Source: Escherichia coli (GTDB taxonomy: Bacteria; Pseudomonadota; Gammaproteobacteria; Enterobacterales; Enterobacteriaceae). Taken from it: a stretch of DNA of 64,000 nt. The stretch lies in NCBI RefSeq assembly GCF_044324785.1, contig NZ_CP172127.1; one strand, written 5' to 3'. The position numbers are program-made. This document shows positions 40,139 to 43,100 of this stretch, one piece after another. The number at the start of each line of letters is the position of its first letter. The stretch's first letter is position 1.

Positions 40139-43100
40139 TAACCGGATTGCACCACCAGATGAGCACGCCGCCAGTGCCGGTGGCCTTGCCGTTGGCATAC
40201 TGGGGGCACTGAAAGCCGCAGGTGGACTGTGGTTTGGCTGGAGTGGCGAAACAGGAAATGAGGATCAGCCACTAAAAAAGGTGAAAAAGGGTAACATTAC
40301 GTGGGCCTCTTTTAACCTCAGCGAACAGGACCTTGACGAATACTACAACCAATTCTCCAATGCCGTTCTCTGGCCTGCTTTTCATTATCGCCTCGATCTG
40401 GTGCAATTTCAGCGTCCTGCCTGGGACGGCTATCTACGCGTAAATGCGTTGCTGGCAGATAAATTACTGCCGCTGTTGCAAGACGATGACATTATCTGGA
40501 TCCACGATTATCACCTGTTGCCCTTTGCGCATGAATTACGCAAACGTGGGGTGAATAATCGCATTGGTTTCTTTTTGCATATTCCTTTCCCGACACCGGA
40601 AATCTTCAACGCGCTGCCGACATATGACACCTTGCTTGAACAGCTTTGTGATTATGATTTGCTGGGTTTCCAGACAGAAAACGATCGTCTGGCGTTCCTG
40701 GATTGCCTTTCTAACCTGACCCGCGTCACGACGCGTAGCGCAAAAAGCCATACGGCGTGGGGCAAAGCGTTTCGAACGGAAGTTTACCCGATCGGCATTG
40801 AGCCGAAAGAAATAGCGAAACAGGCTGCCGGACCACTGCCGCCAAAACTGGCGCAACTCAAAGCGGAACTGAAAAACGTACAAAATATCTTTTCTGTCGA
40901 ACGACTGGATTATTCCAAAGGTTTGCCGGAGCGTTTTCTCGCCTATGAAGCGTTACTGGAAAAATATCCGCAACATCACGGTAAAATTCGTTATACCCAG
41001 ATCGCGCCAACGTCGCGTGGTGATGTGCAAGCCTATCAGGATATTCGTCATCAGCTCGAAAATGAAGCCGGACGAATTAATGGTAAATATGGGCAATTAG
41101 GCTGGACGCCGCTTTATTATTTGAATCAGCATTTTGACCGTAAATTACTGATGAAAATATTCCGCTACTCTGACGTGGGCTTAGTGACGCCACTGCGTGA
41201 CGGGATGAACCTGGTAGCAAAAGAGTATGTTGCCGCTCAGGACCCAGCCAACCCGGGCGTTCTTGTTCTTTCGCAATTTGCGGGAGCGGCAAACGAGTTA
41301 ACGTCGGCGTTAATTGTTAACCCCTATGATCGTGACGAAGTTGCAGCTGCGCTGGATCGTGCATTGACTATGTCGCTGGCGGAACGTATTTCCCGTCATG
41401 CAGAAATGCTGGACGTTATCGTGAAAAACGATATTAACCACTGGCAGGAGTGCTTCATTAGCGACCTAAAGCAGATAGTTCCGCGAAGCGCGGAAAGCCA
41501 GCAGCGCGATAAAGTTGCTACCTTTCCTAAGCTTGCGTAAGTGCGGTTAATCTCCCGTAAGTGGAACTAACAGCACATCGACCTCACTTGAGGCAATCAC
41601 TCTTTTCGCCGAGCAGGATGCTCGCGAAAAGAAACTGTGATTGTGATTACCGCAAATCACCAAATCGAAATGATATTTGCGACAAACTTCCAGAATATGT
41701 TCGCTTAACTCACCGTAGGCAATAAACGTCTTGTCAACGGGATACCCCGCATCCTGAATTAACTTATCAAGAAAGCTTTGCGTTTCTTCCTGCATCACGC
41801 TGCGTAAATCTTCAAGCATCGGCGCAGCTAATTGATTGTACATTTCCGGGTCGGAAGCGAGAGTAATTAAACTGATGTGTCCCTTTACTGGCCTGGCGAT
41901 AGATACCGCTTTTGCCAGCAGTTGCTGACTTTCCGGTGTAACCGCAACGGCGACAAGAATATTGCTATAGCTCATAACCTGTTCCTTATTCTGTGAACTT
42001 CAGGTGACATTAAAGCTTTACTCCTAATGGAGAAACGACGCAATCCCAACTCAGTCAAACAGGTAAATATTAGTCTGATTATTAGTAAAGACAATTAATC
42101 AATCACTCTCGGTGATCATATGATTTCAACTGTAATTATAAGAAAATAATGTACTGATTCTCCATATTAAACAAGTGGTTAATATATGTAAAACATTTTA
42201 TTAACATTAAGTTGATTGTTGCCTTTCTTTGTATTTAATTAGTTTGTTGTGCGGTAAGTGTCTGTTTAAAAATAGCTTATCTGGTATTGCATTAAAGCAA
42301 TTATTTATAGCAGATGATTATTTACGGTGAGTTATTTTAACTGTGCGCAACATCCCATTTCGATTATTCCTGTTTCATTTTTGCTTGCTAGAGTCGCGAA
42401 AAACTTTTTAACAGATTGAAATACACCCAAAACAAAAGTATGACTTATACATTTATGTTAAGTAATTGAGCGTTTTGTGTGATCTGTATCACACATTATT
42501 GAAAATCGCAGCCCCCCTCCGTTGTATGTGAGTGTAGTGACGAGTAAAGTTGCGTCGATTTAGGAAAAATCTTAGATAAGTGTAAAGAACCCCTTCTATT
42601 TGTAAGGACTTATTGAATCCCAAAAAGGGGCTCTGCCTGTTGCAGCTTATCGCAACTATTCTAATGCTAATTATTTTTTACCGGGGCTTCCCGGCGACAT
42701 CACGGGGTGCGGTGAGACCGCATAAAAATAAAGTTGGTTATTCTGGGTGGGAATAATGCATACCTCCGAGTTGCTGAAACACATTTATGACATCAACTTG
42801 TCATATTTACTACTTGCACAGCGTCTGATTGTTCAGGACAAAGCGTCCGCAATGTTTCGTCTCGGCATAAATGAAGAAATGGCGACAACGTTAGCGGCAC
42901 TGACTCTTCCGCAAATGGTTAAGCTGGCAGAAACCAATCAACTGGTTTGTCACTTTCGTTTTGACAGCCACCAGACGATTACTCAGTTGACGCAAGATTC
43001 CCGCGTTGACGATCTCCAGCAAATTCATACCGGCATCATGCTCTCAACACGCTTGCTGAATGATGTTAATCAGCCTGAAGAAGCGCTGCGCAAGAAAAGG

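What the first reader, a model, noticed from the sequence alone, without database searches (positions are those of the whole stretch)
42478..42493. Exact-consensus CRP site in the flhDC master-operon promoter
TGTGAtctgtaTCACA lies about 270 nt upstream of the flhD ATG, consistent with a CRP-activated promoter followed by a long (about 200 nt) 5' UTR. It marks the native, uninterrupted flhDC control region.
Basis: partly seen in the sequence, partly recalled or inferred. Interest (0 to 1): 0.25.

Follow-up and report, generated by a model that had tools for sequence, protein, structure and literature searches.

The report
Known CRP site of flhDC promoter
This is the well-known docking site for the sugar-starvation regulator CRP in front of the E. 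coli flagellar master operon flhDC; it is real, correctly placed and conserved across enteric bacteria, but it is textbook biology and not a discovery.

Summary
The motif TGTGAtctgtaTCACA is at window 42478-42493, as reported. The window is E. coli (otsBA, uspC, then flhDC-motAB-cheA). Its centre lies 270.5 nt upstream of the flhD ATG. Transferring the K-12 transcription start (198 nt before the ATG) by alignment puts +1 at 42557. That gives a 199-nt leader and a site centre at -71.5, a standard class I CRP activation position. The core promoter is weak (TTGTAT-17-TAAAGT, 7 of 12), as expected for an activator-dependent promoter. Published K-12 work shows CRP binding to this fragment, a CAP site at -72, and cAMP/CAP-stimulated transcription in vitro. 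In 79 of 79 other Enterobacteriaceae species with enough upstream sequence, an exact TGTGA-N6-TCACA core sits upstream of flhD. Its spacer varies freely and its distance to the -10 hexamer stays within 1 bp, while leader length ranges from 166 to 358 nt. Only the two pentamers match the consensus (15 of 22 for the full site). This exact core is the norm in E. coli (about 87% of 5,426 complete genomes), and K-12's TCACG is the minority form. No insertion sequence interrupts the 780-bp uspC-flhD spacer. The feature is already known and of low interest.

The parts
42478..42493 (.). CRP (CAP) binding site core, TGTGA-tctgta-TCACA. The full 22-bp site is 42475-42496 and its centre is 42485.5, which is -71.5 from the inferred start site.
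   Evidence: The orthologous K-12 site, TGTGATCTGCATCACG, is also centred at -71.5. Exact half-sites occur in 79 of 79 other species.
42522..42527 (+). -35 hexamer TTGTAT (3 of 6 matches to TTGACA)
   Evidence: The motif TTGTATGT lies 43-45 bp after the site start in 79 of 79 species.
42545..42550 (+). -10 hexamer TAAAGT (4 of 6 matches to TATAAT). K-12 and most E. coli have TACAGT. The spacer to the -35 hexamer is 17 bp.
   Evidence: Across species the hexamer is TAGAGT in 46, TACAGT in 29, TAAAGT in 3 and TATAGT in 1, so only its third position varies.
42557..42557 (+). flhDC transcription start (+1, a G). It is inferred by transferring the K-12 coordinate 1978395; the 20 nt around it are identical in the window.
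   Evidence: AsflhD coordinates and the flhD TSS are discussed in PMC9600491. It was not mapped in this strain.
42557..42755 (+). 199-nt flhD 5' leader. Positions 42561-42574 read TAGGAAAAATCTTA, which I recall as the RcsAB box (from memory, not tested here). Allele-specific changes cluster at +33 to +83.
   Evidence: The start of the leader, GAaTTAGGAAAA, is conserved across genera.
42756..43106 (+). flhD (116-aa form; an alternative GTG start lies at 42747)
   Evidence: RefSeq annotation of identical E. coli genomes.
43109..43687 (+). flhC, the second gene of the master operon
41547..41975 (-). uspC, the divergent neighbour. The 780-bp spacer 41976-42755 contains no insertion sequence.

Best explanation
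The motif is the cAMP-CRP binding site of the sigma-70 class 1 flagellar promoter of flhDC in an E. coli strain. A CRP dimer bound at -71.5 sits on the same face of the helix as RNA polymerase. As at other class I promoters, it helps recruit polymerase to a weak core promoter (TTGTAT-17-TAAAGT) through the alpha subunit C-terminal domain. flhDC, and with it the flagellar regulon, is therefore turned up when cAMP is high, that is on poor carbon sources. Transcription starts at about 42557 and gives a 199-nt leader before flhD. Shown here: the sequence, its position, the geometry relative to the promoter elements, its conservation, and the absence of an IS element. Taken from the literature on K-12: CRP binding, the start site and cAMP/CAP stimulation. 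Inferred: that this allele behaves the same way, and the alpha-CTD contact mechanism.
For: The sequence and its chance expectation are. The window is 100% identical to E. coli N3 and matches 5,422 of 5,426 E. coli genomes. The site centre is -71.5 in both the window and K-12. The consensus promoter scan finds no + strand sigma-70-like site in the spacer, which fits activator dependence. PMC9600491 places the CAP site at -72 and reports that cAMP/CAP increased flhD transcription in vitro. PMC1935009 reports that purified CRP shifts the flhDC upstream fragment and that carbon-source induction is lost in a cyaA mutant. In Salmonella the CRP site is required for P1flhDC (PMC3946378). Conservation: 79 of 79 species have an exact TGTGA-N6-TCACA core, against 8 of 15,800 shuffled upstream regions. 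The centre-to-(-10) distance is 59.5 bp in 61 species, 58.5 in 16 and 60.5 in 2, and the -35/-10 spacer is 17 bp in 78 of 79, while the predicted leader length ranges from 166 to 358 nt.
Against: Nothing found here contradicts it. The caveats are these. The start site is transferred from K-12 and was not mapped in this strain. This allele differs from K-12 at two positions inside the site, one in the promoter spacer and one in the -10 hexamer, and none of these has been tested. The primary footprinting paper (Soutourina et al. 1999, PMC94207) is not in the library, so I could not read it. In Salmonella the same site also represses an overlapping minor promoter, so activation may not be its only role.
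Confidence: 0.94

Rival explanations
1. The site works mainly as a CRP operator that represses an overlapping or alternative promoter, rather than as an activator site. In Salmonella, P6flhDC is active only without CRP and the -10 boxes of P2 and P6 overlap the CRP site. A variant of this idea is that the site serves the divergent uspC gene.
For: PMC3946378 reports that P6flhDC is repressed by CRP and that the P2 and P6 -10 boxes overlap the CRP site.
Against: The same paper shows that the CRP site is required for P1, the main motility promoter. In K-12, cAMP/CAP increases flhD transcription in vitro. What is conserved across 79 species is the distance to the P1-type -35 and -10 elements. The uspC start codon is about 500 bp away. 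Repression could coexist with activation as a minor second role.
Confidence: 0.04
2. The motif is a chance palindrome with no regulatory role.
For: AT-rich intergenic DNA yields many partial matches. With one mismatch allowed, the number of matches in the window is no more than expected (3 found, 1.96 expected).
Against: Exact matches are expected 0.05 times in the window. The half-sites are invariant in 79 of 79 species while the 6-bp spacer varies freely, and only 8 of 15,800 shuffled upstream regions contain an exact core. Binding and activation have been shown experimentally in K-12.
Confidence: 0.01
3. The palindrome is bound by another CRP/FNR-family regulator, such as FNR, rather than by CRP.
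For: Family members recognise related inverted repeats.
Against: From general knowledge, the FNR consensus is TTGAT-N4-ATCAA. The invariant TGTGA/TCACA pentamers with a 6-bp spacer are the CRP signature. Purified CRP binds this fragment.
Confidence: 0.01

Closest known systems
E. coli K-12 flhDC promoter (flhDp) CRP site, centred at -71.5 (Soutourina et al. 1999, J Bacteriol 181:7500; cited in PMC1174868 and PMC9600491)
   Same: It is the orthologous position in the same uspC-flhD spacer. It shares the same centre (-71.5), the same -35 hexamer TTGTAT, the same 17-bp spacer, and an identical 20-nt context around +1.
   Different: K-12 reads TGTGAtctgcaTCACG and the window reads TGTGAtctgtaTCACA. 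The window also has A instead of C at -26 and at -10 (TAAAGT instead of TACAGT), a 1-nt longer leader, and no IS1, which sequenced MG1655 carries at about -107. The K-12 form of the site is in 413 of 5,426 genomes, the window form in 271, and the majority form tctgca/TCACA in 4,472.
Salmonella enterica P1flhDC promoter and its CRP site (Yanagihara et al. 1999; PMC3946378)
   Same: It has an exact TGTGA-N6-TCACA core upstream of flhD with the same spacing to TTGTATGT and to TA(G)AGT (loci L030 and L042). CRP is required for P1.
   Different: The spacer sequence differs, the -10 hexamer is TAGAGT, and additional start sites P2-P6 have been described in Salmonella. These were not examined in E. 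coli here.
Class I CRP-dependent promoters in general (from general knowledge: lac P1 at -61.5; others near -71.5, -82.5 and -92.5)
   Same: A single CRP site lies upstream of a weak sigma-70 core promoter, at a spacing that keeps CRP on the polymerase face of the helix.
   Different: The transcript has a long leader that, in K-12, is known to be targeted by several small RNAs (PMC3634460). From my own knowledge it is also a CsrA target and many other regulators act on the promoter. None of that was analysed here.

Membership tests
Class I CRP-activated sigma-70 promoter | A DNA site matching the CRP consensus (TGTGA-N6-TCACA within a 22-bp palindrome) | tested here: met
   Both pentamers match exactly at 42478-42493, and 15 of 22 positions match the full consensus.
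Class I CRP-activated sigma-70 promoter | Site centred upstream of the -35 hexamer on the polymerase face of the helix (near -61.5, -71.5, -82.5 or -92.5) | tested here: met
   The centre is -71.5 relative to the K-12 start site transferred by alignment. The centre-to-(-10) distance is 59.5 +/- 1 bp in 79 of 79 species. The start site was not mapped in this strain.
Class I CRP-activated sigma-70 promoter | Weak core promoter that needs the activator | tested here: met
   TTGTAT-17-TAAAGT matches 7 of 12 positions. The consensus scan reports no + strand promoter in 41950-42800.
Class I CRP-activated sigma-70 promoter | CRP binds the site and raises transcription in a cAMP-dependent way | not testable with these tools
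   This is shown in the literature for the K-12 allele only: an EMSA and a cyaA effect (PMC1935009) and in vitro transcription with and without cAMP/CAP (PMC9600491).
Class I CRP-activated sigma-70 promoter | Activation through CRP activating region 1 contacting the alpha subunit C-terminal domain | not testable with these tools
   This is inferred from the -71.5 position and general knowledge of class I promoters.
Enterobacterial flhDC class 1 (master operon) control region | It lies directly upstream of flhD-flhC, with the mot and che genes downstream and uspC divergent | tested here: met
   ORFs. RefSeq annotation of matching genomes.
Enterobacterial flhDC class 1 (master operon) control region | Long 5' leader (198 nt in K-12) that begins with a conserved GA(A/T)TTAGGAAAA segment | tested here: met
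   The leader is 199 nt and the segment is conserved across genera.
IS-activated flhDC variants (IS1, IS5 or IS3 upstream of the promoter) | An insertion sequence in the uspC-flhD spacer | tested here: not met
   The window stretch is 901 bp and collinear with IS-free genomes of 900-901 bp. MG1655 has the 768-bp IS1H with a 9-bp target duplication.

The most novel reading that the evidence does not exclude
The reference strain, not the window, is the odd one. Perfect CRP half-sites are the ancestral and strongly conserved state: 79 of 79 species and about 87% of E. coli genomes. K-12's TCACG would then be a derived, weaker site that may contribute to the poor motility of IS-free K-12 and to the selection for IS insertions. 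Separately, the window carries a distinct regulatory haplotype found in about 5% of genomes, including O104:H4 and several ETEC strains. It has changes at -70, -26 and -10 and an apparently compensated stem in the leader, and it might set a different flhDC expression level.
Probability: 0.2. Interest if true: 0.3.

Novelty: already known. Interest (0 to 1): 0.08.

Why it matters
It confirms that this stretch is the intact, wild-type control region of the flagellar master operon, so motility in this strain should respond to carbon source through CRP in the normal way. The only mildly useful by-product concerns the K-12 CRP site on which the experimental literature rests. That site is a minority, sub-consensus allele, and natural E. 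coli and related genera carry perfect half-sites.

Tried and rejected
Soutourina et al. 1999 could not be read by PubMed id or by PMC id, and Zhang et al. 2017 (PMC5775904) is also not held. The start site and the -72 position therefore rest on PMC9600491 and on the MG1655 annotation. Several papers returned by the searches did not give the site position. The consensus promoter scan did not detect the flhDC promoter; I read this as a sign of a weak core promoter, not as evidence against one. A cross-species consensus fold of the first 110 nt of the leader supported only the first small hairpin and gave no support for the E. coli stem at +30 to +76. An Rfam scan found no family in the flhD leader. 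The chance-palindrome and FNR-site readings were considered and rejected on the conservation pattern and the half-site sequence.

Full report
**Observation.** The 16-mer TGTGATCTGTATCACA is at window 42478-42493 on the + strand. The pattern TGTGA-N6-TCACA occurs twice in the 64-kb window, against 0.05 expected from dinucleotide-preserving shuffles. With one mismatch allowed the count is no longer above chance (3 found, 1.96 expected), so it is the exact match that is informative. Only the two pentamers are exact consensus. Against the 22-bp CRP consensus AAATGTGATCTAGATCACATTT (from general knowledge), the window sequence TTGTGTGATCTGTATCACACAT matches 15 of 22 positions.

**Context.** The surrounding ORFs are otsB, otsA, uspC (minus strand, 41547-41975), then a 780-bp spacer, then flhD (ATG 42756), flhC, motA, motB and cheA. 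The stretch 41900-42800 is 100% identical to E. coli strain N3 and matches 5,422 of 5,426 complete E. coli genomes. RefSeq annotates uspC and flhD at the two ends. The window is therefore E. coli, and the motif lies in the flhDC control region, 270.5 nt (centre to ATG) upstream of flhD.

**Geometry.** In MG1655 the AsflhD feature ends at 1978395, 198 nt before the flhD ATG. PMC9600491 describes AsflhD as starting 22 nt inside flhD, being about 220 nt long and covering almost the whole flhD 5' UTR. This fits a flhD start site at that coordinate.

- The 20 nt around that position are identical in the window, which places +1 at 42557.
- The leader is 199 nt, because of a 1-nt insertion relative to K-12.
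- The site centre is -71.5 in both strains.
- The core promoter is TTGTAT (42522-42527), a 17-bp spacer, then TAAAGT (42545-42550). That is 7 of 12 matches, and the consensus scan reports no + strand promoter in the spacer. This is what one expects of an activator-dependent promoter.

**Experimental basis (literature, K-12 and Salmonella).**

- PMC9600491 states that CAP promotes flhD transcription by binding 72 nt upstream of the start site, and that cAMP/CAP increased flhD transcription in vitro.
- PMC1935009 shows that purified CRP shifts the flhDC upstream fragment. It places the site about 250 bp before the GTG start, and shows that carbon-source induction is lost in a cyaA mutant. In the window there are 253 bp between the site and the GTG at 42747.
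- In Salmonella the CRP site is required for the main promoter P1flhDC, and it overlaps the minor starts P2 and P6. P6 is repressed by CRP (PMC3946378).
- The primary E. coli paper (Soutourina et al. 1999, PMC94207) is cited by these papers but is not held in the library.

**Conservation.** A scan for FlhD-encoding loci in one genome per species returned 80 loci. They come from Escherichia, Citrobacter, Salmonella, Enterobacter, Leclercia, Lelliottia, Kosakonia, Trabulsiella, Cedecea, Franconibacter, Atlantibacter and other genera.

- All 79 loci with at least 444 nt of upstream sequence contain an exact TGTGA-N6-TCACA core. The remaining locus has only 196 nt upstream.
- Only 8 of 15,800 shuffled upstream regions contain such a core.
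- The 6-bp spacer varies freely while both pentamers are invariant.
- TTGTATGT begins 44 bp after the site start in 62 loci, 43 bp in 16 and 45 bp in 1. The -35/-10 spacer is 17 bp in 78 of 79.
- The -10 hexamer is TA(G/C/A/T)AGT.
- The CRP centre lies 59.5 bp before the first base of the -10 hexamer in 61 loci, 58.5 bp in 16 and 60.5 bp in 2.
- The predicted leader length ranges from 166 to 358 nt.

Selection has therefore kept the distance from the site to the promoter, not the distance to the gene. That is the signature of a class I activator site.

**Variation within E. coli.** I used allele-specific 34-mer searches, which depend on megablast needing a 28-nt exact word.

| Spacer / right half-site | Genomes (of 5,426) | Note |
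|---|---|---|
| tctgca / TCACA | 4,472 | majority form |
| tctgca / TCACG | 413 | K-12 form, mostly laboratory strains |
| tctgta / TCACA | 271 | window form, including O104:H4 and several ETEC isolates |
| tctgta / TCACG | 2 | |

The exact core is thus the species norm, at about 87% of genomes, and the reference strain is the exception. Compared with ten other E. coli sequences, the changes seen only in the window allele are at -258, -162, -26, -10 (C to A, giving TAAAGT) and eight positions between +33 and +83. The third position of the -10 hexamer is also the position that varies between genera, so I expect a small effect at most. This is an inference.

**"Native, uninterrupted".** The 901-bp stretch is collinear with nine IS-free genomes of 900-901 bp. 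Sequenced MG1655 has the 768-bp IS1H with a 9-bp target duplication, and its flhD-proximal end lies about 107 bp upstream of +1. Of 5,422 genomes with a match, 5,271 cover at least 80% of the query in one piece, so the uninterrupted state is the usual one. The claim is correct. However, the CRP site is not what marks an uninterrupted region, because MG1655 keeps the site with IS1 next to it.

**Mechanism and rivals.** The best reading is a class I cAMP-CRP activator site for the flhDC promoter (confidence 0.94).

- A purely repressive role, or a role for uspC, is unlikely. The promoter-relative spacing is what is conserved, and cAMP/CAP activates transcription in vitro. A secondary repressive effect on a cryptic overlapping start, as at Salmonella P6, cannot be excluded.
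- Chance is excluded by the conservation pattern.
- An FNR site is excluded by the half-site sequence and the 6-bp spacer.

**Comparison and novelty.** This is the orthologue of the K-12 flhDp CRP site and of the Salmonella P1flhDC CRP site. It meets every sequence-level criterion of a class I CRP promoter. Binding and the activation contacts could not be tested with these tools. The feature is already known. The only slightly new points are descriptive. K-12's half-site is a minority, sub-consensus allele. The window also carries a roughly 5% haplotype with changes in the -10 hexamer and the leader.

**Side observations.**

- The second exact core (33672-33687) and a one-mismatch core (33702-33717) lie just upstream of the 28-codon azuC ORF at 33771-33857. 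AzuCR is reported to be CRP-repressed, with predicted CRP sites in its promoter (PMC8915982).
- In the flhD leader, minimum-energy folds of the window allele and the majority allele keep the same stem: AGA.CCCCUU/AAGGGG.UCU versus AGA.CCAUUU/AGGUGG.UCU. The A-to-C change at +36 is matched by a U-to-G change at +72. A cross-species consensus fold does not support this stem.
- Rfam reports no family in the leader.

Noticed in passing
window 33672-33687 and 33702-33717: A second exact TGTGA-N6-TCACA core (TGTGATTTGCATCACA) and a one-mismatch core 30 bp downstream. They lie between yecR (33185-33508, minus strand) and the 28-codon ORF MKLRKILKSMFNNYCKTFKDVPPGNMFR (33771-33857), which is AzuC of the dual-function RNA AzuCR. 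PMC8915982 reports CRP repression of AzuCR and predicted CRP sites in its promoter, so these are also known sites. Their position over the likely -35/-10 region fits repression.
   Followed up: partly
window 42589-42639 (flhD leader, +33 to +83): Eight changes specific to the window allele, including a 1-nt insertion, cluster within 50 nt of the leader. Folds of the window and majority alleles keep the same stem (CCCCUU/AAGGGG versus CCAUUU/AGGUGG). The +36 A-to-C change is paired with a +72 U-to-G change, and some strains (A16, M7424, IAI39, AF14) carry the intermediate C/U state. A cross-species consensus fold gave no support for the stem.
   Followed up: partly
L001 (MG1655) versus window 42493: The K-12 reference CRP half-site TCACG is a minority allele (413 of 5,426 genomes). 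About 87% of E. coli genomes and 79 of 79 other species have TCACA. The strain used for nearly all experiments on this promoter therefore has the atypical, sub-consensus site.
   Followed up: yes
window 42531 and 42547: The window allele has A instead of C at -26 (promoter spacer) and at -10 (TAAAGT instead of TACAGT). Both changes are absent from the ten other E. coli sequences compared. TAAAGT also occurs in three Pseudocitrobacter loci (L055, L059, L064).
   Followed up: partly
window 41900-42800: The uspC-flhD spacer is unusually divergent within the species. Only 251 of 5,422 genomes are at least 99% identical to the window here, and most are 96-97% identical. Papers returned by the searches use this spacer as a strain or niche marker, including a uspC-IS30-flhDC variant in wastewater strains (PMC5007776; not read in detail).
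   Followed up: no
window 61473-61780, 48137-48214 (minus strand), 29625-29924: Rfam matches at gathering score: MicL sRNA, C0465 RNA and three tRNA genes. None is related to the finding.
   Followed up: no
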